Of a DNA stretch of 64,000 nucleotides, positions 25,496-60,445 are shown piece after piece. This DNA is from Naegleria gruberi (Eukaryota), in the NCBI GenBank assembly GCA_000004985.1, contig GG738900.1; one strand, given 5' to 3'. The position numbers were made by a program, and so were the translations under genes. Position 1 is the stretch's first letter, and each line of letters opens with the position of its first letter. Under the pieces are notes generated by a model. That model was not told the origin of the DNA, searched no databases, and saw nothing but the letters and a program-made list of their open reading frames with translations.

Positions 25496-27745
25496 TTAAT
25501 GGTGAGAGTGACCATGATCACAATCATCCAAACAACCCATCATGGTTGGAAGTGGGAACATTGACATGAAAATTCTTCGAATGACAATTTCCAAAAATCC
25601 TCGATTTCTTTCCTCAACACATTCGATAATTTCACCCATGCTAGAGACCTTTACAATGACCTTATCTTCCTTATCTACAACATCAATTTCTCTATTTTCT
25701 GAGAGTCTACATGTGCATTCTCCAAAATGTTCTTTAAGCATTTGTTGAATGCAATATAACATTTTCAATTCATCCTTTCCTTCATCGAGTAAACTTTCAT
25801 GGAAAGATTTGTCAGTATATAAGATTAAATTACAGATACTATCAACAATAGTGTCATTTGCTGCACTACTTGGCCATTCAATGACACCACATGGTGTCTT
25901 TTCTTGTAATCTCAATTCAATTCTGACAACACCATCAATGAAAATGACAATAGGTTTGGCAGCTTCTGCAGCAAACTCTATTGGAGTATATTTGATGTCT
26001 TCCTTCTTGTCATCTGTTGTGTCCATAATTTCTGATTTAACTTGAACTTCGGTAGGTTCGGTTTCCAAAGTTACATTGCTAAATACTGATCTAATTAATT
26101 GTTCATATGGTACTGTATCATTCAATGGTACAAGGAGTGTTTGCTTAACACCAGAGCAACAAACATCAGAGTACAATTTAAGATCCTTTTCGTTCAAAAG
26201 TAAATGTTGGAAATTGTGATGCAAAAGAATACCATTAATTTCGTCACCATCTTCATATTTTGTAACTGCAAGTTGACCTAAAACCTTGGCTCTCTTTTCA
26301 CCTTGGAACATAATATTAATGCTTGTACAATTCTTTGGTGCATAAACCTTGCTGTCTGTAAACTTGCTTTGAAGTGAATGCTTCAAACGATTGCAATTAG
26401 CAAGATCTCCGTGTACTAAAATAATGTGAGGAGGTTTGATAGTTCCAATAAATTCCTCTGTTTGTGCCTTATCAGAGTGAGCAGAGAATGAAATAGTTCT
26501 CACACTCATTCTCAATGGAACTGTATTACCATTTGAAAGTGTAACAGTTTCAGGTTCACTCATAATTTTCTTAGCAAGTGTACCATCAACTGAATAACCA
26601 GCAATGATAACACCATTCTTGGCATCTTGACACCACAATTCAAACAATTCCTTTGACAAACCAGATTGAAGCATACCAGGACTGGCCATAATGACACAAG
26701 GACCATTATCTTGGAAGTCTTCAATAGATCTCAAATTACTGATATGCTTAAAAACGAAAGGATTGTGAATATCAAATTGTTTTCTAATCTTGTCATTCAT
26801 CATGTTAATATAAGTTTGGAAAATGGTCATACATTTCTTAGCAAGGGAAGAAGCATAATAAATAGGAATATGTTGTAAATCTTGATGTGTTTCCCAAAAT
26901 TCATCTAGAATGAGAAGAAGCTCTTGTGCTCTTCCCAAAGCAAATACGGGTATAAGACAACGACCTCCTCTCTTAACAATTTCAGTAACCATTTGTGTAA
27001 AACGTTTTTCTCTTTCAGATTGACTTTCATGTACTTGAATACCATAAGTAGATTCTACAATAAGAACATCAGGTGACATTGTTGGTGTTTCAGCTCCTAG
27101 TAAATGTCTATCTGGTTGCCTAGAAAAGTCTCCTGTATATAAAACTCTTACACCTGCAATTTCTACCATAAACATGGCTGCTCCTAATACGTGTCCAGCA
27201 TTATAACACCAAAATTTAATTCCATTATGTTCCAATTCTTGATGATAATCAATAAGTTCAATTTTCTTCAGTGAATCAAGTAAATTTTGTTCTGTGAAAA
27301 GTTGATCATCTACATGAACATCACTCACTTTAACAAAGTCAGTCAACAATAATTTATAGATAGCTTTAGTAGGGTGAGTCATGAATACTCTTCCTTGGAA
27401 ATTTGTATGTTCAGTAAAGTAAGGAAGTGCTCCGCAGTGATCCAAATGAAAATGTGTTACTAAAACTAAATCAATTTCACTAGGTTCTATCGTATCAAAG
27501 AAAGGAAGACTAGCCATACCAGTGAATGCAGGGTGAATACCACAATCAAAAAGAACAGTCTTTCCCTTGAATTGTAGAAGGACTGCACTTCTTCCGACTT
27601 CATTTCCTGCTCCTAATGGAGTTACAACTAATTTTTCTCCGTAAATATATTGTGTGTGAGGTGTGTTTTTTGTGATGGTAACAGGTTGTGGTGTTGCCGA
27701 TGACGATGATGGTGGAGGATTTGATGAAGGAGTGTTTGAAATCAT
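25496..27745 (-). CDS. CPSF3: Cleavage and polyadenylation specificity factor 73-kDa subunit (metallo-beta-lactamase/beta-CASP endonuclease)
   Basis: LVVTPLGAGNEVGRSAVLLQFKGKTVLFDCGIHP, the HFHLDHCGALPYF (HxHxDH) motif and beta-CASP motifs. Single 749-aa exon with a His-rich C-terminus. Confidence 0.9.
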   Translation of the reverse strand: MISNTPSSNPPPSSSSATPQPVTITKNTPHTQYIYGEKLVVTPLGAGNEVGRSAVLLQFKGKTVLFDCGIHPAFTGMASLPFFDTIEPSEIDLVLVTHFHLDHCGALPYFTEHTNFQGRVFMTHPTKAIYKLLLTDFVKVSDVHVDDQLFTEQNLLDSLKKIELIDYHQELEHNGIKFWCYNAGHVLGAAMFMVEIAGVRVLYTGDFSRQPDRHLLGAETPTMSPDVLIVESTYGIQVHESQSEREKRFTQMVTEIVKRGGRCLIPVFALGRAQELLLILDEFWETHQDLQHIPIYYASSLAKKCMTIFQTYINMMNDKIRKQFDIHNPFVFKHISNLRSIEDFQDNGPCVIMASPGMLQSGLSKELFELWCQDAKNGVIIAGYSVDGTLAKKIMSEPETVTLSNGNTVPLRMSVRTISFSAHSDKAQTEEFIGTIKPPHIILVHGDLANCNRLKHSLQSKFTDSKVYAPKNCTSINIMFQGEKRAKVLGQLAVTKYEDGDEINGILLHHNFQHLLLNEKDLKLYSDVCCSGVKQTLLVPLNDTVPYEQLIRSVFSNVTLETEPTEVQVKSEIMDTTDDKKEDIKYTPIEFAAEAAKPIVIFIDGVVRIELRLQEKTPCGVIEWPSSAANDTIVDSICNLILYTDKSFHESLLDEGKDELKMLYCIQQMLKEHFGECTCRLSENREIDVVDKEDKVIVKVSSMGEIIECVEERNRGFLEIVIRRIFMSMFPLPTMMGCLDDCDHGHSHH

Positions 27746-32240: not shown

Positions 32241-33575
32241 ATGACCAACCAAGAGAATTGTGGACCAACAACAAATGAATTGGTGAATAGTAATTCTAAT
32301 AGTAATACAATACCATTATCATCATCGTTACCAACAAATGATACATCATCAACAATAATTTGTACTTCTAAAACACATCAATTATCTAAATTTTACAAGT
32401 GGTGTCCTCATGATGATTATTTATTAATTAAAGGAGTAGAGAAGGGAATGTCAGCAGAGGAAATTAGAGGATCAATCAAGTTTGAGAGGAGTTTCACAAC
32501 GGAAGAAATTACAGAAAGATGGTTATCAATTTTATATGATCCGACAATTTCCCAAATTACTGGCAAGCACATGAATATGTTACAATCAGTGAAAAATTAT
32601 AAACGAGTTCCTTGGTCAAATGAAGAAAATCAAATTATATTTAAAGAGGCAGAAACTCATAAGGAGGTACCATTAAATTTCGAATTAATTTATGATAAAT
32701 ATAGGGATTGTTTGCATCCATCTAGATGTCCAAAAACATTGGAAGCACACTATCAGAGAATGAGAAGAAAAGGAATTATCAAGGAACATATTTCGTCAGT
32801 CACTGAAACACAACCAATACAAACACCAACAGCTGTTGGATCGACGATGGATGATGAAGATGAGGATTATGATGAAACAAAAACATTTTCAGAATTGGAA
32901 AAGGAGGTGTTGAATGCTCCAATACCAAATGATTTGGAAATGAGAGCACAAAATATTCAATTGATAGAAAATAAGGTATCAGAAAAGAATGAACTAAAGA
33001 AAATTCACAAACTTGAAAAGGAAAATGATATTGATGAACAGGCTACAGGCACCAAGAAGATTAAACTCTCATTTGAAGAGAATGTAATTGCTGTATTTGA
33101 TGGAATACAATCTAAGCAAAATATTTACAAATCAGAATCTATCATTGGAAGAAAGAATTCTAGCTTTAATGTAGATGTTGACCTAAGTATTGAATCTGAG
33201 GATATTGGAAAGATCTCAAGAAAGCAAGCTGTTCTTACACTGAGTTATACAATTGAAGAAAAACCTGCTGTAAAGACAATTATTGCCACTGGTGAAAGCG
33301 GTGAAAAAATTGATAGAGTTGCTGATGTAGAAGATCTTTCTGGAACAATAGATGAGTCCAGCAATAAGAGAGTAGTTTTCACATTCAAGTTACAAAATGT
33401 TGGTAAGAGAAACATTCTTGTAAATGGACAACCAGTAGAAAATAATAATGATATTGCTATTCCACATCAATCTTTAATCCAATTTCCAGGAGGTGGAAAG
33501 TTTGTTTTTAAAATCTCTACAGAAGGTTTAAAGAAGTGGTACGACTTGAACAAATCTGCCACCCAAATACTTTAA
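32241..33575 (+). CDS. Microspherule protein 1 (MCRS1/MSP58) homologue with C-terminal FHA domain
   Basis: WCPHDDYLLIKGVEKG...RWLSILYDP matches the MCRS1 N-domain (RW.ALLYDP). The C-terminal GRKNSSFNVDVDL...ISRKQAVL...NILVNGQPV has an FHA fold signature. Confidence 0.68.
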   Translation: MTNQENCGPTTNELVNSNSNSNTIPLSSSLPTNDTSSTIICTSKTHQLSKFYKWCPHDDYLLIKGVEKGMSAEEIRGSIKFERSFTTEEITERWLSILYDPTISQITGKHMNMLQSVKNYKRVPWSNEENQIIFKEAETHKEVPLNFELIYDKYRDCLHPSRCPKTLEAHYQRMRRKGIIKEHISSVTETQPIQTPTAVGSTMDDEDEDYDETKTFSELEKEVLNAPIPNDLEMRAQNIQLIENKVSEKNELKKIHKLEKENDIDEQATGTKKIKLSFEENVIAVFDGIQSKQNIYKSESIIGRKNSSFNVDVDLSIESEDIGKISRKQAVLTLSYTIEEKPAVKTIIATGESGEKIDRVADVEDLSGTIDESSNKRVVFTFKLQNVGKRNILVNGQPVENNNDIAIPHQSLIQFPGGGKFVFKISTEGLKKWYDLNKSATQIL

Positions 33576-33657
33576 TAAATCTTGACTCAATTTGATATTT
33601 AGTTATTATTATTTTATTGAGTTTTTTATTTTATAAATAAATTAGTTGTTTACAAAT

Positions 33658-36384
33658 TTAGAAAGCTTCATCAGACTTAGTTTCTTCATTCTTAGATGAC
33701 TTAAGAGCTTGAATTTCATCTTCAAGCTTCTTAATTCTGTCAAGGAACATCTTGTCAGCTTCTTGAACAGCCTTTTCAAGTTCAGACTTGAACTTGACAT
33801 AGTCTGCTCTTTGTTCAGAGTAAGCAGAACCTCTTAAAGCAGCTGCACGTTTCATGGCAGTAATCTTATCACTCAATTTCTGGAGTGCATTCAAACCACC
33901 GTTAACCTTATCGTATTTTTCTTTCAATTGAGCATTGAGTTCATCAAGAGAGGACTTGATAACTCCTTGAGAAACTGTTTCAGCATCCAATTCTGAGGCA
34001 ATTGTTTGAGCACTATCCTTTTTACCTTTAAGGGTGATATCTTGAGTATCAAGAGTATCCTTCAAAGCAGCAGTGTCAATTTCAAGAGAACGAGCAGCAT
34101 CAGACTTGTCATCCAAGAGCTTGTTAAGCTTTTCCTTTTCAATAGCACTGCTTTGCTTTTCATTAGTCTTTTCAGTAATTCTATCTCTGAGTCTAGCCAA
34201 TTCAGCCAAAATCTTTTCTTCTTCTTCTCTGAGTTCCTTAAGTTTGGCAACTCTCTTCTTGAGATCGTTGGAGAATGATTGAAGCTTGGAAGAAACATCT
34301 TGCTTGGCCTTCAAAAGTTTGGTCTTTTGGTTTTCAATCATTTGTTCGTATTTCTTGAGTTCGTCATCTCTTTCTTGTTGTTGTTTCTTCTTCAACATTT
34401 CAGCCTTTTCATCATCATCTTCTTCGAATTCAAGAATCTTGGACAAGAGTTCGTCCTTACTCTTTTCATAACTTTCCTTGAGACGTAATTGTTCCAAATA
34501 CTTCTTCTTGACAGATTCAGCAGCGTTAATAACTTCATTTTCAATTCTAGTAAGCTTTTTGTCAATGTTAGTGAGCTTCTTTTGTAATTCAGCAACTTCT
34601 TGAGTGTAAGCATCAACTTCAACGGTGAGAGCAGAAATCTCCTCACGAATTTTTTCGAGTTCGAGAAGCTTGGCCTTTTCTCTATCTTCAGAATCCTTTT
34701 GAATATCAGCAGCTGTGGACAAAATAACATCAAGTTCTTCGAGTCTCTTTTCTAATTGTTCTCTTTCCTTAACAGCCTTTTCTCTTTGTCTATTCTTAGC
34801 ATTGTAGGCAGACTTGGTTTGAGCCATAGCGTTTTCCAATTCGGCGATAGCAGCATTAATAGATTGCAATTCCATATTCAAATCCTTGATATTCTTTTCC
34901 TTATTGGCAACTTTATCTTCTGTTTCCTTGAGTTCTTGAAGACGTTCATTTAATGATTCAGAAATATTCTTCAATGCACCGAGTTGGGAATTGTAATCAT
35001 CAGCAAGAGCATCAATGTCTTCAAATTCATATTTGAGATTTTCAGTAAGATTTTGAACCTTAGCCTTATTATTTTGGAGTTCCAAGAACAAAGCTTCAAT
35101 TCTGTTCCATTGAGCAATACGCTTAACTAAAGAAGATGAGTTATCTTCTTGGTCATCAGCAATAAGACTTCTCAATTCATTTTCAGATTTTTGTGAATCA
35201 GACTCAGTGGTATCAACTGTAATTTCTTGCAAATCAGCAACAGTGGCAACAGCAGATTCAACCAATTCAGAGAATTCCTTCTTTCCATCAACTGGAGCTG
35301 GCTTTGTAGAAAGTTCTGGTTTGGTGTCCAAAACCCAAACATCATTGTAATTCTTCTTATTGAAAGAACCACCAAAGACAAAGATTTGGTGACCCTTAAC
35401 AACAGAACAGTGACCTCTACGAGCAGGAATCAAATCAGAGTTATCAATAGTAGTTTCGTCGAGCCACTTTTCTCTCTTGAGATCATAAACTTTAGTATCA
35501 TCAAGAGTTTGCTTGCTAGTCATACCACCATAAACAAATACCTTGTTATCCAAAATATTGGCAGTGTGGAAAGATCTCATTTTACCACCAACCTTTGTTG
35601 TAGTCCAGGAAAGCTTTGCAGTACCAGAGGTAAGTCCAGCACAAGTGGCTGGGAGTTCCAAAACATGAATGTCAGGGTTGTATTCTTCTTCACTCTTACT
35701 ACCACCAACAATATAAAGCTTACCATCATGGATGATGCTCTTGTGTCCTTGAACGTATGGACTTTCTGGAACAGAAATTGACTTCCATTCAGAAGAAGTA
35801 GTATTCAAGACGAATAGACCATTCTTAACAGATCCGTCAGTACCACCATAAACAATAATGCATTCACCAAAGGCAGAAGCAGAATGTGATTGAAGAGAAC
35901 CAGGCTTATCTCCGGTTGTGATAACCTTTCTCAAAATTTCACCTTGGACATCCAAAACATAAAGATCTTGGTTATAGTCGAATACGCCAGATCTACCACC
36001 AAAGACGTACATCTTGTCTCCAATGAGAGTCATAGAATGTCCAGCCAATGTTGGGATTTGTTTTAATTCAGCTTGTGGAGTTGAAATGGTTTCCACATTC
36101 AACTTTGACCAAGATCTATCGCTAATAGAATAACTAAAGAATGTATTGCTGAATGATGTCACTCCTGTTCTTCCACCAAAAACAATAATTCTCTTGCCAG
36201 ACTGATCCAATTCACAGGAGTGGAATGGTCTTTCCAATGGAGGTGATCCTCTTTTAATTTTAACTTGTTCCCATCTTCCTAAACTAACAGCCATGACACT
36301 GCTAATTGTTAAAGCTACAAGCATCAACAAAGCTAGTGAAGTCTTCAACAAGCCTTGTGCGCCTTTAATATTGAGTGGCGTCAT
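33658..36384 (-). CDS. Kelch-repeat (six blades) plus long coiled-coil protein with N-terminal signal-anchor
   Basis: An N-terminal hydrophobic segment SLALLMLVALTISSVMAV. Six kelch units with GG doublets and W (IIVFGGRTG, MYVFGGRSG, IIVYGGTDG, LYIVGGSKS, VFVYGGMTS, IFVFGGSFN). About 540 aa of heptad-rich Glu/Lys sequence follow. Architecture resembles fungal Tea1/Kel1. Confidence 0.7.
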   Translation of the reverse strand: MTPLNIKGAQGLLKTSLALLMLVALTISSVMAVSLGRWEQVKIKRGSPPLERPFHSCELDQSGKRIIVFGGRTGVTSFSNTFFSYSISDRSWSKLNVETISTPQAELKQIPTLAGHSMTLIGDKMYVFGGRSGVFDYNQDLYVLDVQGEILRKVITTGDKPGSLQSHSASAFGECIIVYGGTDGSVKNGLFVLNTTSSEWKSISVPESPYVQGHKSIIHDGKLYIVGGSKSEEEYNPDIHVLELPATCAGLTSGTAKLSWTTTKVGGKMRSFHTANILDNKVFVYGGMTSKQTLDDTKVYDLKREKWLDETTIDNSDLIPARRGHCSVVKGHQIFVFGGSFNKKNYNDVWVLDTKPELSTKPAPVDGKKEFSELVESAVATVADLQEITVDTTESDSQKSENELRSLIADDQEDNSSSLVKRIAQWNRIEALFLELQNNKAKVQNLTENLKYEFEDIDALADDYNSQLGALKNISESLNERLQELKETEDKVANKEKNIKDLNMELQSINAAIAELENAMAQTKSAYNAKNRQREKAVKEREQLEKRLEELDVILSTAADIQKDSEDREKAKLLELEKIREEISALTVEVDAYTQEVAELQKKLTNIDKKLTRIENEVINAAESVKKKYLEQLRLKESYEKSKDELLSKILEFEEDDDEKAEMLKKKQQQERDDELKKYEQMIENQKTKLLKAKQDVSSKLQSFSNDLKKRVAKLKELREEEEKILAELARLRDRITEKTNEKQSSAIEKEKLNKLLDDKSDAARSLEIDTAALKDTLDTQDITLKGKKDSAQTIASELDAETVSQGVIKSSLDELNAQLKEKYDKVNGGLNALQKLSDKITAMKRAAALRGSAYSEQRADYVKFKSELEKAVQEADKMFLDRIKKLEDEIQALKSSKNEETKSDEAF

Positions 36385-37104
36385 TTTTTTTTGTTTTAAT
36401 TTTTTATTATTTTTTGAAAATTACAATTTGCATTTGGCGGGGAACGTGTTTGTGTGAAGAAAACTCGGTTTGCCTTTAAAAGTTCAATTAAAGACAAATT
36501 TGTTGCTTTAGGTAGTTCTATATTGCAAATGCCATCATTTTCATTGTTAAGGTTTTAATTTTCATTTTTGTTCGCATTTTCATTGAACTTCAGTTGCGGA
36601 TTTGTGCTCAACAAAATTTTATCCTTCAAGTTTTGAATTTTAATGTTTGATAAAATTGGAATCCACTGAATGCTGTTTTTGATTTCCATTACTTTCCCTT
36701 TTCATGAAATGCCTTAGTAAAGACCATCCTTCTTATTAGTTTCTGAACAACAGCTGAATATCACTTGATAAATAATCTTTGGATAATTTCTAACCCATTC
36801 ATGGTTGATAATTATTAACAAGCATAGAAGAGAAATGATTAGGTTATCTTCATCACATTTTTCGGTATCTGCCATTCACCTTGTTAAATAAAACAATTAA
36901 AAAATTAAAGAAAACCACAACAAGCAACGTTTTCAAAAAATATTAATCCACAACAAAGCAAATATCTTGTAAAGTGGTATGAATGATGATTAATATTTGA
37001 CAAGCATATATCGGATTCTTCGGAGCGGACGACTAACAGGCGACTGACTACTGTTGTTTCATCTAACAATTAAGTTTGATTGGAAACAAATTTATGTTTG
37101 CTTT

Positions 37105-39161
37105 TTATTCTTGATTGTTGTCAAGTAGTGAAGAATGATTTGATTTTTCTTCGAGTAGTAATTCTGTAGAGTCTTCTGAGGGTTGTTTGGTTAACACGAG
37201 AGGACTCATTGCTACAGTACTAGAGCTAGGTTCAGAGCTTTCTGATTTTGATTGAGAATTGTTGGCAACATCTGTTGAGATGGTAAGGTTTTTGACCTTC
37301 TCTGGTGTTTTCACTTCTGCAGTGGTGGAAGCTCGTGGTGTTGTCAATGTGAGGACTGGATGATCTGTTGTGATAGTATTATTATTGGATGATGTGGTGG
37401 TGTGCTTTTCAGGTGCCTTACTTGTATTGGCACTTGCAGCTGTCGTTGAGGTTTGCTTTGTGTTGTTTGTCGATGAGGCATTAGTTGTACTATTGGATGA
37501 AGATGTTGTTGTGGTAGTAGATGATGCTGTTTGTCTTGGTGTGGCCACTGATTTCTGAACTTCCTTCTTATTTTCTGGAATTCTACCTCTGAATGATGTG
37601 AACAATTCTTCATCTTCATCATCATCAGTTAGGGCTTTGGAATTGAGTGATTTTTGAGATTTCATAAACGAGACGAAATCCACTTCTTCCTCTCCTTTTT
37701 TCTTTTTTGAATGTTCTTCCTTCTTTCTATCATCCAAGTATGGATGCTTAAAGGTCAAGTGATATTGTTTGAATAGATTTTCAATCTTTTCATGTTTGTA
37801 ATCCATATCTGAATCAATGAGGACAAAGTACATTTTACCCTCTCTTTCGTCTCTCTTTCTTCTCACTAAATAGTGATAAGTCTTTCTATTTGAATTCATT
37901 AACAAACTGTCAAAGTATCCAAAAGTATCTCCACCATCTTCTACTACTGATACATAAAAAGAACCCGGTTCATTTTCTGCAAATCTTGTAATGTATGTAC
38001 CTGGTTCTTGACCATCCAATAAATTTTGTGCTTCAATTGATGACATACTTCCCCAGAAATGTTTCATATCCAAAATTGTGTTGAGAATTGGAAAAAATTG
38101 AGTTGAGAATGGTCCAAACCATTTCAAAGTTGTTTTAAAATCAATCATGGAAACAACATTATCACATGTTGGATCTATAATGTACGATATTTCATCTACC
38201 CAATTTTTCTTTGTTCTGACGTTAAAATCAAAGAATGTATCCAATGTATCAAGGAAACTATCCTTGCTCACAGAGAATATATTTCCACCAATGTTATTCT
38301 TCCAAAATTCTGCACCGAATTCATCCAAAATAGTTTCATTTGTAGTATTCAGTTGAGATTGTGTAGAGGAATCAGAATAATCCAATCCCTGTAATTCAGC
38401 ATCGTGAATGAAGGACACCAATTTCTTGTAACCAATCATTTCTTCCAAATGATGACTTGTCAAAATTTCACATTCATCCTTAATTTCGAAATATCTCTAA
38501 ACAATTATTAGAATCAATTAATATCAAATGCACAAACCTGTTTGTTATCAATATTTGACCAATCATAACCCATAGATGAAAGATTAGCATTAGAAGATGA
38601 ATTAGACATGGTTCCAGTTACAGAACTTGAACGTTTCAAACTTCTTCTGGCGTTTGCTTCAGAAATTGCAACCAAATCTTCCAAATTCTTTTTAGTTTGT
38701 TGCAAATGATTAATAATATTCTCAGTCATGACATCAAATGCCTGTTTATATCCACTCACTGTGCTTCTTGCTCCCAACAAGATATTATTATTGTTCTTTC
38801 CTGTTAGTGAGAATAATATTTGTGTGTTCTGTTTGGAAAAATTATTCGAAATGTCATCATAATATTTTACAATCTCCTCAATGTTTTTAACTGGTATTGT
38901 GAATCCTTCCAATACTCCACTTGGCGGTTTGATAATACTCAACAAATTATTACAAGTGATTCGGAACATGTTTGTATCGATGGTTCCTGCTCCTGCATTA
39001 CCAGAAATTAATAAACTGGCACTTCCACCAAGGATCATTCCTGATTGTTTGTTGTAGGGAAGTAATTCTACAAGTCCATGAGAGGCCTGACTCATATTAA
39101 AGTGTGTTCCTGGTAAATTGGTGACGAGTTGTTGCTTGTCACTTGATTGTTCTTGTCCCAT
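37105..39161 (-). CDS. N-myristoylated SH2-domain protein with STAT/Cbl-type SH2 and Thr/Ser-rich tail; exons 38538-39161 and 37105-38496 (41-nt intron)
   Basis: N-terminus MGQEQS (Gly2/Ser6 myristoylation consensus). The SH2 core FWGSMSSIEAQNLLDGQEPGTYITRFAENEPGSFYVSVV resembles STAT (PGTFLLRFSES) and Cbl TKB (PGSYIFRLS). The downstream ORF starts at TTG and is in frame with the upstream exon after removing gtttgtgcatttgatattaattgattctaataattgtttag. Confidence 0.68.
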
Positions 39162-39273
39162 TTTTTGATTGATAGGTTTTCAATTAATTTGTTATGTTCT
39201 ACTAACAACTATTGAAAACAAGAATGATAAAGTATTATCTGAGTAATAATTGATAAATTACAAAATGTGTTTA

Positions 39274-40205
39274 TTATTCAGTAACTGTCTTGGCAGTATT
39301 ATTAACATTGAGCAAAGTTGGTGTGAAAGAAGTTTGTGGTTGATATGCACTAAAAGCAGATTGATAAGAACCCATTCCACTTGCACGTAAACCACCTCCG
39401 ATACCAGTAGATGGTGATGATGATGGTGTTGGTTTGGCAGTTGTTGCTCCTCCAAAAAGTGATCCTGAATAACTCTTCTTTCCTGTAGTAAATGGAAGAT
39501 ATCTATGTTTAATCATGTGTCTGATTTGTTTTCTCAAAGTAACAGCCAACAAAATGATCCAATATCCCAACAAAATAGGCCAGTAAACTGGAATGTCCAA
39601 AATTCTTGTAGATGATAACAAGAGAGAAATTACAACACCCTTTGTTAATGAGTACCAGAATTTAAACTCTGGAAGACGACGAACAAAAGGCTTTACATCA
39701 TCAGCATCTTGTTTTGGTTGTCCAAACAATCCACCAGAGGCAAAATTACGTCCAACAGAGGTACTTGGAAGGGTTGCACTTCCAAGATTTGCTTCCTCGT
39801 CTTCTTCATCTTCATCGTCGTCTTCTTCAGGTCTAAACTTTGGTGAAATGAAGGCAATAAACAAATTGATTACATAAATTCCCAATCCATAACAAATTAT
39901 GTACCATCCATGGAAATATATAACTCTAAACAAGAATAAGAAGAAGAGGAAACCTAACACCGACCAACGGAGTGTCTTCTTTCCATTCAATCTAATCATC
40001 ATCAAATACACACAAATTATTTAATCATCAAATCCACACAAATTCCGCATAAAAATTATTATTAATTCGATCATCAAACAATCACTTGGTATTTAACAAG
40101 AAGAAAACAAATCTTGATTACGCACCTATCCAAAAAACTTTGATACTTCATTCCAAATGAACGGAATGATCCTCCTCCAATACTGCTCTCGCTTTCCAAG
40201 TCCAT
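39274..40205 (-). CDS. RER1: Rer1 (retrieval to ER protein 1); exons 40126-40205 and 39274-40010 (115-nt intron)
   Basis: WSVLGFLFFLFLFRVIYFHGWYIICYGLGIYVINLFIAFISPK and RRLPEFKFWYS...DIPVYWPILLGYWI...RKQIRHMIKHRYLPF match Rer1 throughout. Exon 1 (MDLESESSIGGGSFRSFGMKYQSFLD) splices in frame to RLNGKKTLRW. Confidence 0.85.
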
Positions 40206-41491: not shown

Positions 41492-44191
41492 ATGAGTACA
41501 ACTGCTGTTGGTCAGCAGAATCAACAGCAGGAGCAACAACAATCACAACAACAACGTTCTTCTACGCCTCCTCCCTTAATAATGCCAACGTTATCACTCT
41601 CACCGAGGCATTCATCACAACCGAATGGTTTGCAGCCATTTTCGATAGTGGTACAACGAGCGCAACCATCACCCTTATCTTCATCGTTATCAAGTATTCA
41701 GGAGCATCTCTTCTTTGTTAATAATCATAGTAATGTTCATGCGAATATAAATCTAGGTGGAGCAGAGAATGGTGTTCAGCTACAGCTGGTACAACCCTTA
41801 AACTCTGATAATAATAATATTCAAGTGGTTTGTAGATTCAGACCAATGAATGATATGGAAAAAACACAATCGGAAAAACCAATTGTTGAATTTGGAGAAA
41901 ACCAAAATTGTACTATAAAAGTAAATATCATCATACGAAAATACTTATTTACTAATTAATTAATTTAGACTAGGAGATCTGTACATAATTTTACATTTGA
42001 TAGAATTTTCAACTCTGAAACAAGGCAAGAAGACATTTTTAATGTGGTAGGAAAACCAGTGGTTGAAGGTAAGTATTCTATTAAGTAATATTTAGAATTG
42101 TTAACAATATCAGATGTTTGCAAGGGATATAATGTAAGTATGAGAAGATATTCAAATTAAAACAATCGAAATTAATAATAGGGAACTATTTTTGCTTACG
42201 GTCAAACTGGTTCAGGTTAGTATTCAATTGATTTCAACAATTTATTTAATATTATTTTAGGCAAAACATTTACAATGATGGGAGCTGGAGACTCGATATT
42301 AGGTTATTCAGAACATCCAGAATTTAAAGGTGTGATCCCAAGATCTATTGATTATTTGTTTAGATATTTAGAAAGTAATTCTGAAATCAAGTTTGCTGTC
42401 TCAATGTGTTTCGTTGAGATTTATATGGAAAGAATTAAGGATTTACTCGATCGTAAGTACTCTTTATCAATCAGTGCTTATCAATTTCAATAGCAAGCAA
42501 AAAGAATTTAAAAATTGAAAAGCGAGAACCAAGAGGAATTATTGTTAGTGGAGCAAGAGAGGAGAGAGTAACAAGTGCAAGAGAAATTTATCAATTATTA
42601 AAAATTGGAGCTTCAAACAGAGCTATTGCAGCAACAAGTAAGTAGGATGAATTTCTCCATTTCTCAAAATATAAAGAAATGAACGAGGAAAGTTCAAGAT
42701 CTCATACAATACTAATTGTAATGGTTAGTCAGAAAAATATTACAACCTCAGAAACCAAGTTTGGTAAACTGATTCTTGTCGATTTGGCAGGTAGCGAAAA
42801 AGTTAAAAAAACAGGGGCTAGTGGTTCAACTCTGGAGGAAGCAAAGCAGATCAACAAATCGTTATCTGCACTAGGAATGGTTATTACAGCTTTAACAGAC
42901 GGAAATGTAAGTCCACTCATGTTAGCATTAAATGTTCATTTCAACCAAGTCAAAACATGTACCATATAGAGATTCAAAACTCACAAGATTACTTCAAGAT
43001 TCATTGGGTGGTAACTCAAGAACAACTCTTGTGATAAATTGTTCGTTCAGCTCATTCAATGAGGAGGAAACTTTGTCTACATTGAGGTTCGGTGAAAGAG
43101 CAAAGAAAATCAAAAATAAGGCAAAGGTCAACAGAGAGCTGACTGCCAAAGAGTTGAAGCAAATGTTAGAAAAGGCGAAAGAAGAGGTTAACGAACTTAG
43201 AGATATTATAACAGGACTGAGAAATAAGCAAATTGAAGAATCAAGAAAGTTTGATGAGGAATTATTAGAAAATTCTCATATCAAACAAGAAATTGAAGTT
43301 GTTACAAAAGAAAAGGAAAAACTGAAGGAAATCATAGAGGAAATGAATGAGATTACTGTCAAACAAAGTACAAAAACTTCTAGACATAGATCCATTTCCA
43401 TATCGAGTTCTCAAAAACTTTTTAATCCAAGAAGACTGTCAATGTTCGTTTCCAGATCTGCAACTTTGTTCGAGAGTGGTGGAGACTCTCCAATGAGTGC
43501 TTGCACTGCAAACGATACGAGCGAAGCAATCTTTGATCAAACAGGGTCAGAAACCTCATCGATAGGTGATGACGAAGGAACAGACTATGCTGAGCTTTTT
43601 GAAAAAATGGAAGTTGAACGAGAAAAGACAGAATCAAAGAATAAGGCCCTACAATCTCAAGTCTCGAGTCTTACAGCTGACAATTTTGATATTGAACAGA
43701 AAAATAAGGAACTGAAAGAGCAGGTGAGAATTCTGGAGGAAATAAATAAGGAAATGGAACAGGAACATATTAGAATGCAAGAAGAGCTATTACTTAAACA
43801 AAAATCTCTAGATTCTCTGGAAGAAGATTTGAAAAAGTCCAAAAAAAACGAAACCAAATGGAAGAAGGAAACAATGGAACTAAGCGAAGTATTCAACAAA
43901 ACTGTGCAAAGCAAAGTCCGAGAGTCTGTCAGAAATCAAAATAGTTTATCTGGAAATAATAAGGTTGTGGAAATGCTGACGTTAGAAATCAAAGCTCTCA
44001 CAAGTCAGGTGTCCTTCTTCGATGTGGCTACCAGAAGTGCTTTCCGAGAGAAGTTTGGAACATTGGCTTACTCAATCTCAAAGAGTGGCGTTGTAAAACC
44101 AGAAGAAATTTTCCCTATTAACAATACTGGAGCAGCTTCTCCAAATTCCAAAGAAAGAGTATTCACTATTAATTCAAGTTTAAAACAGTAA
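41492..44191 (+). CDS. Kinesin-1 heavy chain-like motor protein, about 797 aa; exons 41492-41920, 41969-42068, 42114-42133, 42182-42215, 42261-42452, 42494-42637, 42677-42906, 42950-44191
   Basis: A Gln-rich N-terminus is followed by [36 protein letters not shown] (split over three exons including a 20-nt microexon), [20 protein letters not shown] and [21 protein letters not shown] long coiled-coil stalk follows. The seven introns are 43-48 nt. Total CDS length is 2391 nt, which is in frame. Confidence 0.88.
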
Positions 44192-58693: not shown

Positions 58694-60445
58694 TTATTGA
58701 TTTGCAGCAAACAGTGATTTGAGAATTTGAAGAACTTGTGAAATAGTTGGTCTCTCCAGAGGATCTTGTTTCCAACACCAAGAAATTAGATTGACTATTT
58801 CATTTTGCTCTTTAACAAGTATCATATTTGGAGAAAGTTCTGGTCTTTCACCTTTTGAAACTCTGTCCAATATTACTTGTGGATTGTTGCCCTTCCAAGG
58901 ATTGATATGTGTAAATATTTCATACAAAACAATACCAAATGCAAATATATCCACTGCTGAGCTAAGTGGATATTTCCCCTTAGCAAGTAGAATTTGCTCA
59001 GGTGATTTGTATTGTACCATTACAGCATGCTCTGCTGCACTAACGTTAGGGTTATAATATTTGATCAGTGAGTGTGGAATTATCAGCATACCACACTCTC
59101 CACATGTTGGAGCAGAAGCAGTAGTGTTGCAAACATAACATGTGCTAGAATCAACCAAGAATTTACAATCATAGTCATCCGAAAGCATAATGTTAGCTGA
59201 GCTAACATTAACACAAATCATCTTCTTGTCGACATGTAAGAAATGCAATGCATTAGCTGCACTAATGGCAACCCTATAAATATTATTCCTTTGCTTTAGA
59301 TTCTCTTTGGTATGGTTAATAGTTTCTGAACTCTTCTTTTTCGGTGGTGGTTTAAAAAGTACATCATAAAGAAATCCATTTTTACAATGCTCCATCAAGA
59401 TTTTAAATTGAAATTTTTCCTGTCGCAAACCATATCCAATATGGTCCACAATTGATGGATGTTTTAGTGTACATAAGAGAAGAGCCTCTCTCTTCCATGA
59501 TTCTAATTGTTCTGGTTTTGAGAAAATAACTGTTCTCACTGCATACTGTTGATTATTAAACAGGCATTGTCTCATTACATAATTATGTCTTCTATCAATG
59601 ACTTTATCTTCTGTCACAACTAAATCATAATCTGGTAAAAAATACATTCTTTCTAACATTGATAAGGCTTCTCTATTGTCTCCAACAATCATAGAAAGAG
59701 CATCAGTTTTTTGTGACTCAAATGTCTTCTTTTCTGCATCAAACACGATTTTCCTCAAACGTTTTACAAGCTCTGGAAATGAAAAAATGTTATCAGAGAG
59801 AACTTTCTGTAATTCCAATTTGATAAAGTTTTGATGTAAATTATCTTCAAACATTTTTGCACCGGCAGCACTTTGGACTGATTGATTTGTCACATTATTT
59901 TCAGATATTCCTCTTCCATACGAAGAAAGTAATTGAACAATAAATCCTTTAGTTGGGTATTCAAGTGGTACTGTCAATCCAAATTTGTAGTGGGTATAGT
60001 TTGGAGAATTTTCAGAAGGAAGATGGATTGATTGTTCACAAGGAGTGTCATCGTCATCATTTTCTGAAGATAGTTTTGAAAATCTGCCATCTTTCATTGC
60101 ACTAACTTGAAGTTTTTGCACTGGTGTGATGATTTGAGTGGAGAGACGAATTTCAATGTAGAGGAAGTTATTAATGTCTGGTAAATTAATGTCTGCAGAA
60201 ATGTAGAGAAAGTAGTTCGTTGTTCCGGTTGATAAGGAAGAAATAGAACAATCGTCACCTTTTCCATTAATTTCCTCCTCAGCAACGTAATGTTTTTCAA
60301 TGGGTAAAGATAATTCTTTTTGTATTAAATCCTGAATTTGAATTTTGGAGAGAAGTGTTGGTTTTGGTGATGATGATTGTGGGCTATCAGCTGCAGCTGC
60401 CACAGCAGCAACTTGTTGCTTTTCTATTTGCTTCTTTCTGAACAT
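58694..60445 (-). CDS. Protein kinase-like domain protein (probable pseudokinase, TKL-like)
   Basis: The C-terminal 300 aa have a kinase fold (LHFLHVDKKMICVNVSSANIML, KSPEQIL, DIFAFGIVLYEIFT, WKQDPLERPT). The VAIK lysine (AVR), HRD and DFG motifs are non-canonical. Confidence 0.6.
   Translation of the reverse strand: MFRKKQIEKQQVAAVAAAADSPQSSSPKPTLLSKIQIQDLIQKELSLPIEKHYVAEEEINGKGDDCSISSLSTGTTNYFLYISADINLPDINNFLYIEIRLSTQIITPVQKLQVSAMKDGRFSKLSSENDDDDTPCEQSIHLPSENSPNYTHYKFGLTVPLEYPTKGFIVQLLSSYGRGISENNVTNQSVQSAAGAKMFEDNLHQNFIKLELQKVLSDNIFSFPELVKRLRKIVFDAEKKTFESQKTDALSMIVGDNREALSMLERMYFLPDYDLVVTEDKVIDRRHNYVMRQCLFNNQQYAVRTVIFSKPEQLESWKREALLLCTLKHPSIVDHIGYGLRQEKFQFKILMEHCKNGFLYDVLFKPPPKKKSSETINHTKENLKQRNNIYRVAISAANALHFLHVDKKMICVNVSSANIMLSDDYDCKFLVDSSTCYVCNTTASAPTCGECGMLIIPHSLIKYYNPNVSAAEHAVMVQYKSPEQILLAKGKYPLSSAVDIFAFGIVLYEIFTHINPWKGNNPQVILDRVSKGERPELSPNMILVKEQNEIVNLISWCWKQDPLERPTISQVLQILKSLFAANQ

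What the first reader, a model, noticed from the sequence alone, without database searches (positions are those of the whole stretch)
37105..39161. Myristoylated SH2 protein assembled from two ORFs; SH2 resembles STAT and Cbl
A 41-nt intron (38497-38537) fuses the MGQEQS... ORF to a TTG-initiated ORF. The product is about 670 aa: N-myristoylation motif, a helical region, an EF-hand/linker-like segment, an SH2 core (PGTYITRFAENEPGSFYVSVV) and a Thr/Ser-rich tail. A lipid-anchored STAT- or Cbl-TKB-like SH2 protein without a kinase or RING domain is an unusual architecture. SH2 domains are restricted to a few eukaryotic lineages.
Basis: partly seen in the sequence, partly recalled or inferred. 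Interest (0 to 1): 0.6.

Follow-up and report, generated by a model that had tools for sequence, protein, structure and literature searches.

The report
Lipid-anchored Cbl-like phosphotyrosine reader in Naegleria
This is a real, spliced Naegleria gruberi gene for a probably membrane-anchored protein that carries the whole three-part phosphotyrosine-binding module of the Cbl proto-oncoprotein but lacks Cbl's ubiquitin-ligase part, so the module occurs far outside animals and slime moulds in a different protein context.

Summary
On the minus strand, a 41-nt GT..AG intron (38537-38497) joins exon 1 (39161-38538) to exon 2 (38496-37105), giving a 671-aa protein. The annotated N. fowleri and N. lovaniensis orthologues start MGQEQS and read straight across the junction. 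N. fowleri has an intron at the same codon and phase.

There is no RING finger, no DNA-binding domain and no tyrosine in the tail. MG-x-x-x-S starts recur in most full-length relatives from Naegleria, Willaertia, Pharyngomonas and another heterolobosean. Named RING-bearing relatives are all amoebozoan.

The most likely function is a membrane-tethered phosphotyrosine adaptor. This is inferred, not shown. The gene appears unannotated in N. gruberi. It is a new variant of a known kind and moderately interesting.

The parts
38538..39161 (-). Exon 1, aa 1-208 (ATG at 39161-39159)
   Evidence: ORF list and translation. The N-terminus MGQEQS is shared with the N. fowleri and N. lovaniensis orthologues.
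38497..38537 (-). 41-nt phase-0 intron, GTTTGT...CTAAT...TTTAG
   Evidence: Orthologue proteins read across the junction without a gap. N. fowleri has an intron at the same codon and phase. The intron is identical in a 98.8%-identical metagenome contig.
37105..38496 (-). Exon 2, aa 209-671 plus the TAA stop (37105-37107)
39141..39161 (-). N-myristoylation-type motif MGQEQSS (Gly2, Ser6)
   Evidence: Sequence. An MG start is seen in P0002, P0003, P0006, P0008-P0012, P0018, P0025 and P0103.
38386..38984 (-). Four-helix-bundle region (aa ~60-245), interrupted by the intron. Low-complexity loops lie between the helices, and a conserved basic RRSLKR site lies in the loop before helix D.
38071..38337 (-). 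EF-hand-like domain (aa 262-350), Cbl_N2 type
   Evidence: Pfam PF02761 scores 29.5 bits against a threshold of 22. A profile of the pre-SH2 region hits c-Cbl at E 5.4e-6 and Cbl-b at 3e-5.
38140..38175 (-). EF-hand loop DPTCDNVVSMID (aa 316-327)
   Evidence: It aligns with c-Cbl IDLTCNDYISVFEF. D316, P317, T318, D320, V323, S324 and D327 are invariant in the closest five sequences.
37735..38064 (-). SH2 domain (aa 353-462), with a long insertion between strands C and D. R379 (37984-37986) and H416 (37873-37875) lie at the positions of the phosphotyrosine-pocket Arg beta-B5 and His beta-D4.
37582..37602 (-). Conserved motif FTSFRGR (aa 507-513), following an acidic run
   Evidence: The pattern F-x-x-[FY]-[RKT]-G-[RKS] is present in 16 of 17 family members examined.
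37108..37581 (-). Ser/Thr-rich, tyrosine-free tail (aa 514-671), predicted disordered. It contains the near-terminal motif ELLLEEK (37144-37164).
   Evidence: Composition and motif table. pLDDT is below 50 in the part of the orthologue's tail included in the better model and throughout its tail in the first, poor full-length model.

Best explanation
The locus is one two-exon Naegleria gruberi gene. It encodes a 671-aa cytosolic protein that is probably N-myristoylated.

The folded core (aa ~60-470) is a complete Cbl-type tyrosine-kinase-binding (TKB) module. It consists of a four-helix bundle, a calcium-type EF-hand and an SH2 domain packed together. A disordered Ser/Thr-rich tail with two conserved short motifs follows the core. 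There is no RING finger, kinase or DNA-binding domain.

The proposed mechanism has four steps.
1. The myristoyl group tethers the protein to a membrane, possibly reversibly.
2. The TKB module reads a phosphorylated, most likely tyrosine-phosphorylated, partner through the SH2 pocket (R379, H416). The bundle and EF-hand shape the peptide groove, as they do in Cbl.
3. The tail motifs recruit or present other factors.
4. The protein therefore acts as a membrane adaptor or scaffold, not as a ubiquitin ligase.

Shown here: the gene structure, the domain identity, the fold of the orthologue, the conservation of key residues, and the family distribution.

Inferred: lipidation, membrane location, the phosphotyrosine ligand, calcium binding and the adaptor role.
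For: - Splicing: orthologue proteins read across the junction, and the intron position and phase are conserved in N. fowleri.
- Domains: Pfam SH2 and Cbl_N2 score above their curated thresholds.
- Pre-SH2 region: a profile hits only Cbl and Cbl-b, then IBP39. The EF-loop ligand positions are aligned.
- Pocket residues: the beta-B5 Arg and beta-D4 His are invariant or nearly so.
- N-terminus: most full-length relatives start MG-x-x-x-S/T, in Naegleria paralogues, Willaertia, Pharyngomonas, Heterolobosea sp. BB2 and environmental sequences.
- No ligase domain: the protein has only 3 Cys and no RING.
- Selection: 7 synonymous changes against 1 non-synonymous change relative to a second strain.
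- Phosphotyrosine context: N. gruberi is reported to have 3 classical tyrosine phosphatases and 5 SH2 domains but no group-A tyrosine kinase (PMC4342544). In Dictyostelium, tyrosine-kinase-like enzymes are reported to supply SH2 ligands (PMC4758236).
Against: - There is no transcript or protein evidence for this locus.
- The structure was predicted for the N. fowleri orthologue, not for the window's spliced protein, which the tool would not accept. The alignment had only 16 sequences.
- Pfam Cbl_N (four-helix bundle) and Cbl_N3 do not hit the window protein. The bundle is therefore supported by predicted structure only.
- Myristate alone binds membranes weakly, and no palmitoylatable Cys or basic patch lies next to it.
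- Two relatives (P0008, P0011) start with MG but fail the strict pattern, and one (P0016) lacks MG altogether.
- No tyrosine kinase partner is known in Naegleria.
- SH2-type folds can bind phospho-Ser/Thr (Spt6) or other ligands.
Confidence: 0.62

Rival explanations
1. The SH2-type pocket reads phospho-serine/threonine, or an unphosphorylated ligand, rather than phosphotyrosine. The Spt6 SH2 domains do this with RNA polymerase II, and the related Trichomonas IBP39 C-domain is reported to bind the polymerase tail (the Spt6 and IBP39 ligand statements are from my own knowledge, not from a tool result). On this reading the protein is a membrane adaptor in Ser/Thr signalling.
Against: The beta-B5 Arg and the beta-D4 His-Tyr pair typical of phosphotyrosine-binding SH2 domains are conserved. 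By sequence profile the closest SH2 matches are canonical phosphotyrosine binders such as SHP2, at E 5e-13. Cbl itself lacks the alpha-A2 Arg yet binds phosphotyrosine (established knowledge). Classical tyrosine phosphatases are present in Naegleria.
Confidence: 0.2
2. The protein is a natural TKB-only decoy, analogous to the viral oncoprotein v-Cbl. It would compete with a RING-bearing Cbl-type ligase for phosphorylated targets and so protect them from ubiquitination.
For: It has a complete TKB module without a linker helix or RING. v-Cbl is a TKB-only truncation of c-Cbl (established knowledge).
Against: No heterolobosean TKB-plus-RING protein turned up. Six of the 11 RING-bearing proteins among the 150 best relatives could be assigned to an organism, and all six are amoebozoan: Heterostelium, Polysphondylium, Clydonella and Vermistella by name, plus one dictyostelid-like sequence. 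The other five are unnamed environmental sequences. The conserved lipid-anchor motif and tail motifs suggest a function of the protein's own.
Confidence: 0.1
3. The protein is a STAT-like latent transcription factor, with a linker-SH2 that is activated by tyrosine phosphorylation and dimerisation.
For: The best single-sequence PDB match is Dictyostelium STATa, at E 7e-4 over aa 322-392. The family profile matches it at E 2.4e-8 over 68 positions.
Confidence: 0.03
4. The two ORFs are separate genes, or the locus is a pseudogene, and the intron is a coincidence.
For: Prokaryote-style gene callers split the locus into 215-aa and 445-aa ORFs on a metagenome contig. No N. gruberi protein for this gene was found in the collections.
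Against: The junction is reproduced exactly by the orthologue proteins, with the intron position and phase conserved. Conserved residues lie upstream of the first ATG of ORF 2. The four-helix bundle spans both exons. Between strains there are 7 synonymous changes and 1 non-synonymous change.
Confidence: 0.03

Closest known systems
Cbl family TKB domain (c-Cbl, Cbl-b, Cbl-c; Dictyostelium CblA)
   Different: There is no linker helix, RING finger, proline-rich region or UBA domain, so it cannot be a RING E3 ligase. It carries an N-terminal myristoylation-type motif that Cbl proteins lack. Its SH2 is closer to canonical SH2 domains (His-Tyr at beta-D4/D5; it hits Pfam SH2, not Cbl_N3) and has a long C-D insertion. 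The bundle has long low-complexity loops and no Pfam Cbl_N match. The host lineage is Discoba rather than Amorphea.
STAT linker-SH2 (Dictyostelium STATa 1uur; plant STAT-type linker-SH2 proteins)
   Same: An EF-hand-like helical linker is packed against an SH2. The motif GTFxxRF..PG is shared.
   Different: There is no coiled-coil/beta-barrel DNA-binding unit and no C-terminal phosphotyrosine site. The pre-SH2 region matches Cbl, not STAT.
Trichomonas vaginalis IBP39 C-terminal domain (PF11422, PDB 1q87)
   Different: IBP39 has an N-terminal DNA-binding domain and no four-helix bundle or lipid-anchor motif. The Pfam score is below threshold, so this protein is not a member.
v-Cbl (TKB-only retroviral oncoprotein)
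   Same: A TKB module without a RING.
   Different: v-Cbl is a recent truncation of an animal gene fused to Gag. This family is an old, conserved cellular family with its own N- and C-terminal motifs.
N. gruberi XP_002676191 / D2VI37 'SH2 domain-containing protein' and Naegleria, Willaertia and Pharyngomonas relatives
   Same: The architecture is the same: an MG start, helical region, Cbl_N2, SH2, the FxxFRGR motif, an S/T tail and a terminal LxEE motif. These are paralogues and orthologues of the window gene.
   Different: The window gene is the second N. gruberi paralogue (about 42-45% identical to the first) and was not found among annotated N. gruberi proteins.

Membership tests
SH2 domain (Pfam PF00017) | Profile score above the curated threshold | tested here: met
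   31.7 bits against a threshold of 21, aa 355-425.
SH2 domain (Pfam PF00017) | Conserved beta-B5 arginine of the phosphate pocket (FLVRES Arg) | tested here: met
   R379 in GTYITRF. It is invariant in the close family and present in at least 90% of 147 relatives.
SH2 domain (Pfam PF00017) | SH2 fold (central sheet flanked by two helices) | tested here: met
   [not shown]
SH2 domain (Pfam PF00017) | Binds phosphotyrosine peptides | not testable with these tools
   Requires biochemistry.
Cbl TKB domain | Four-helix bundle N-terminal to the EF-hand and packed on it | tested here: met
   [not shown]
Cbl TKB domain | EF-hand-like domain of Cbl_N2 type with calcium-ligand positions | tested here: met
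   PF02761 scores 29.5 bits against a threshold of 22. DPTCDNVVSMID aligns with c-Cbl DLTCNDYISVFE. Calcium binding itself was not tested.
Cbl TKB domain | Divergent SH2 of Cbl_N3 type | tested here: inconclusive
   The window protein hits the generic SH2 model, not PF02762. 18 of 82 relatives hit Cbl_N3. Structurally the SH2 lies within the Cbl alignment.
Cbl family RING E3 ubiquitin ligases | Linker helix and C3HC4 RING finger directly after the TKB | tested here: not met
   No RING or U-box hit. The whole protein has only 3 Cys. The same holds in all heterolobosean relatives examined.
STAT transcription factors | Coiled-coil plus beta-barrel DNA-binding domain upstream of the linker-SH2 | tested here: not met
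   No STAT_alpha, STAT_bind or STAT_int hit even at E up to 10. The upstream region is all-helical.
STAT transcription factors | Tyrosine phosphorylation site C-terminal to the SH2 | tested here: not met
   The last Tyr is Y461, inside the SH2. There are no Tyr in aa 514-671, and none in 13 of 16 family tails.
IBP39 (Pfam PF11422) | Profile score above the curated threshold | tested here: not met
   24.4 bits against a threshold of 25. The resemblance is structural only.
N-myristoylated proteins | Met-Gly start with a small or uncharged residue at position 3 and Ser/Thr/Ala/Gly/Cys/Asn at position 6 | tested here: met
   MGQEQSS. An MG start is conserved in 11 relatives, of which 9 fit the full pattern.
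N-myristoylated proteins | Covalent myristate on Gly2 | not testable with these tools
   Requires metabolic labelling or mass spectrometry.

The most novel reading that the evidence does not exclude
The complete TKB module (four-helix bundle, EF-hand, SH2) is older than the Cbl ubiquitin ligases. On this reading it was already present in the common ancestor of Discoba and Amorphea, near the root of eukaryotes, as a lipid-anchored, RING-less phospho-reader.

Cbl ligases would then have arisen later in Amorphea by adding a RING. STAT linker-SH2 units and the Trichomonas IBP39 C-domain would be reduced derivatives of the same ancestral EF-hand/SH2 unit.

The heterolobosean family would be the closest living proxy for that ancestral reader. 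It would show membrane-proximal phosphotyrosine reading in a lineage without conventional tyrosine kinases.
Probability: 0.3. Interest if true: 0.65.

Novelty: new variant of a known kind. Interest (0 to 1): 0.45.

Why it matters
The TKB domain is usually treated as the signature of Cbl ubiquitin ligases of animals and their closest relatives, with one studied case in Dictyostelium. A conserved family in Heterolobosea changes that picture in three ways.

- It separates the reader module from the ligase function. The family keeps the entire module, drops the RING and adds a lipid-anchor motif.
- It extends the module to a distant eukaryotic supergroup.
- It gives a concrete candidate for studying phosphotyrosine reading in an organism reported to have tyrosine phosphatases and SH2 domains but no conventional tyrosine kinases (PMC4342544).

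It is also relevant to the pathogen N. fowleri, which has an orthologue. In addition, it flags a gene that seems to be missing from the N. gruberi annotation.

Tried and rejected
- A first model of the full-length N. fowleri orthologue, built with 6 sequences, was useless (pLDDT 36). A second model on a trimmed 16-sequence alignment worked.
- The word-indexed homologue searches returned only 5 and 8 proteins, probably because low-complexity words filled the candidate list. The exhaustive profile search was needed to see the family.
- A Pfam scan of all 147 hits exceeded the residue limit, so 82 were scanned.
- The AlphaFold-database fold libraries were not available. Taxon assignment of structural relatives therefore relied on cluster look-ups.
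- The locus of the N. gruberi paralogue was not on record, so intron conservation in the paralogue was not tested.
- Liu et al. 2011 and Liu & Nash 2012, the papers most likely to list the Naegleria SH2 proteins, are not held. I cannot exclude that the family was noted there.
- No held paper links IBP39 with SH2, and the 12 listed of the 19 held papers that mention IBP39 concern Trichomonas transcription and promoters rather than its fold. The papers holding both 'Naegleria' and 'Cbl' that were listed concern the plant calcium sensors called CBL or other topics, not this ligase family.
- The STAT reading was considered and rejected; see the rival explanations.
- A dileucine or clathrin-box reading of the C-terminal motif was considered. 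It was not adopted because the family members do not fit those consensus patterns consistently.

Full report
**Observation**

The feature lies on the minus strand. An ATG ORF (39161-38514, MGQEQS...) and a downstream ORF (38463-37105) are listed separately by the mechanical ORF finder. Removing 38537-38497 (41 nt, GTTTGT...TTCTAAT...TTTAG) joins 624 nt of exon 1 to 1392 nt of exon 2 in frame. The product is 671 aa. Left unspliced, exon 1 terminates 7 codons into the intron.

The junction is not a guess. The annotated proteins of N. fowleri (FDP41_004781, 677 aa) and N. lovaniensis (C9374_006412, 637 aa) are 56-60% identical to the window protein. Both begin MGQEQS and read ...DWSNLDNKQRYFEIKDE... 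straight across the junction. In the N. fowleri genomic locus, the only intron (187 nt, GT..AG) sits at exactly the same codon boundary and phase.

Nineteen residues of conserved sequence (RYFEIKDECEILTSHHLEE) lie upstream of the first ATG of the second ORF, so that ORF cannot stand alone. A metagenome contig that is 98.8% identical carries the identical intron. Within the coding sequence it differs by 7 synonymous changes, 1 non-synonymous change and one codon indel. No transcript evidence was available.

**Organism and context**

The window is Naegleria gruberi. The CPSF73 ORF at 25496-27745 is 100% identical over its full length to an N. gruberi protein, and window GC is 33.4%. The gene order MCRS1, Kelch/coiled-coil protein, this gene, Rer1 is shared with N. 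fowleri.

Neither the spliced protein nor any protein more than 90% identical to it is in the protein collection, apart from the metagenome ORF. The gene therefore appears to be unannotated in N. gruberi. A paralogue, XP_002676191, is annotated as 'SH2 domain-containing protein'.

**What the protein is**

Pfam gives SH2 (31.7 bits, threshold 21, aa 355-425) and Cbl_N2, the EF-hand-like domain of Cbl (29.5 bits, threshold 22, aa 269-340). IBP39 scores just under its threshold. There is no STAT, RING or kinase domain.

A profile of the conserved core, searched against 1.84 billion representative proteins, found 596 relatives, 13 of them at E<=1e-30. The close, full-length ones are:
- the N. gruberi and N. 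lovaniensis paralogues;
- three Willaertia magna proteins;
- a Pharyngomonas protein;
- a protein of Heterolobosea sp. BB2;
- several environmental sequences.

The closest named relative outside the group is a Heterostelium RING protein of the CblA type. More distant hits carry the EF-hand/SH2 unit in many contexts, including kinases, LRR, RING, U-box and PP2C.

A first AlphaFold run with 6 sequences failed. A second run used the N. fowleri orthologue residues 69-532 with 16 family sequences, including both window exons. It gave pLDDT 71 and pTM 0.71, with four long helices, an EF-hand-like domain and an SH2, each at pLDDT 80-96.

At sequence level, a profile of the pre-SH2 region alone hits only c-Cbl (5.4e-6) and Cbl-b (3e-5, from the last bundle helix through the EF-hand), then IBP39 (7e-4). 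The loop DPTCDNVVSMID aligns with c-Cbl DLTCNDYISVFE. From my knowledge of the c-Cbl structure, these are the positions that hold calcium there.

The full profile matches canonical SH2 domains best over the SH2 part (SHP2, 5e-13). It matches Dictyostelium STATa over 68 positions (2.4e-8) and Cbl over 178 positions (1e-7). R379 (beta-B5) and H416-Y417 (beta-D4/D5) are conserved. The module is therefore a complete TKB whose SH2 is less derived than that of animal Cbl.

**What it lacks and what it adds**

There is no RING; the protein has three cysteines in all. Among the best 150 relatives, 11 carry a C-terminal RING. The six that could be assigned to an organism are all amoebozoan; the rest are unnamed environmental sequences. 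No heterolobosean TKB-RING protein was seen.

The N-terminus MGQEQSS fits the N-myristoylation pattern. An MG start recurs in 11 relatives, 9 of which have a small residue at position 6. One Willaertia member lacks it.

After the SH2 comes a basic and acidic stretch, then the conserved motif F-x-x-F-R-G-R. A Ser/Thr-rich tail without any tyrosine follows, with a conserved near-terminal L-x-E-E motif.

**Mechanism**

The best-supported reading is a membrane-tethered, RING-less TKB adaptor:
- myristate provides the membrane contact;
- the TKB module reads a phosphorylated partner through the R379/H416 pocket;
- the disordered tail presents short motifs to other factors.

Phosphotyrosine is the likelier ligand for three reasons. 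The pocket residues are those of canonical binders. N. gruberi has classical tyrosine phosphatases (PMC4342544). In Dictyostelium, tyrosine-kinase-like enzymes supply SH2 ligands without conventional tyrosine kinases (PMC4758236).

All of this is inference. Lipidation, location, ligand and calcium binding are untested. The rivals are a phospho-Ser/Thr or other ligand (0.2), a v-Cbl-like decoy (0.1), a STAT-like factor (0.03) and two separate genes (0.03).

**Comparison and novelty**

The protein works like, and shares ancestry with, the Cbl TKB domain. It fails the defining test for a Cbl ligase because it has no linker-RING. It also fails the tests for a STAT.

[quoted passage not shown] Naegleria SH2 domains have been counted but, in the papers I could read, not described. 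Two key surveys were not available.

Relatives are already in databases under generic names, and their precomputed Pfam hits show Cbl_N2 plus SH2. I therefore rate this a new variant of a known kind. It is a conserved heterolobosean family of probably lipid-anchored TKB-only proteins, and the window gene is an apparently unannotated second paralogue in N. gruberi. Interest is moderate (0.45).

The most novel reading not excluded is that the TKB module predates Cbl ligases and goes back to an early eukaryotic ancestor. Gene transfer between amoebae remains the alternative.

Noticed in passing
window 37582-37602 and 37144-37164: Two short motifs outside the folded module are conserved across the family. 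F-x-x-[FY]-[RK]-G-[RK] follows an acidic run. A near-C-terminal hydrophobic-x-L-hydrophobic-E-E motif (ELLLEEK here) is the other. The tails are Ser/Thr-rich and almost always free of tyrosine. Their function is unknown.
   Followed up: partly
[not shown]
   Followed up: partly
window 37105-39161: The gene appears to be absent from the annotated N. gruberi protein set, although the window is N. gruberi (CPSF73 ORF 100% identical). Only a prokaryote-style split call on a metagenome contig (ERR1078381) matches it.
   Followed up: partly
window 33658-36384 (-): A 908-aa uninterrupted ORF encodes a Kelch beta-propeller followed by a long coiled coil. Its exact sequence is also not in the protein collection. 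N. fowleri has a 949-aa counterpart next to the orthologous gene, in the opposite relative orientation.
   Followed up: no
window 32241-40011; L001 1-14221: The gene order MCRS1-like, Kelch/coiled-coil, TKB gene, Rer1 is shared between N. gruberi and N. fowleri (contig VFQX01000041).
   Followed up: partly
window 58694-60445 (-): A 583-aa ORF has a tyrosine-kinase-like (PK_Tyr_Ser-Thr) catalytic domain, about 20 kb from the TKB gene. No functional link is shown.
   Followed up: no
Willaertia magna proteins P0009 and P0010 (ABK040_009153, ABK040_009156): Two family members lie three locus tags apart on one contig, which suggests a local duplication in Willaertia.
   Followed up: no
window 38497-38537: The intron falls at the start of the fourth helix of the four-helix bundle. 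It is much shorter (41 nt) than its N. fowleri counterpart (187 nt). Its 5' end is GTTTGT, compared with GTACGT in N. fowleri.
   Followed up: partly
window 42932-44191 (+): This ORF matches only the last 55 positions of the kinesin motor profile at its N-terminus. It is therefore probably a downstream exon of a multi-exon kinesin gene.
   Followed up: no
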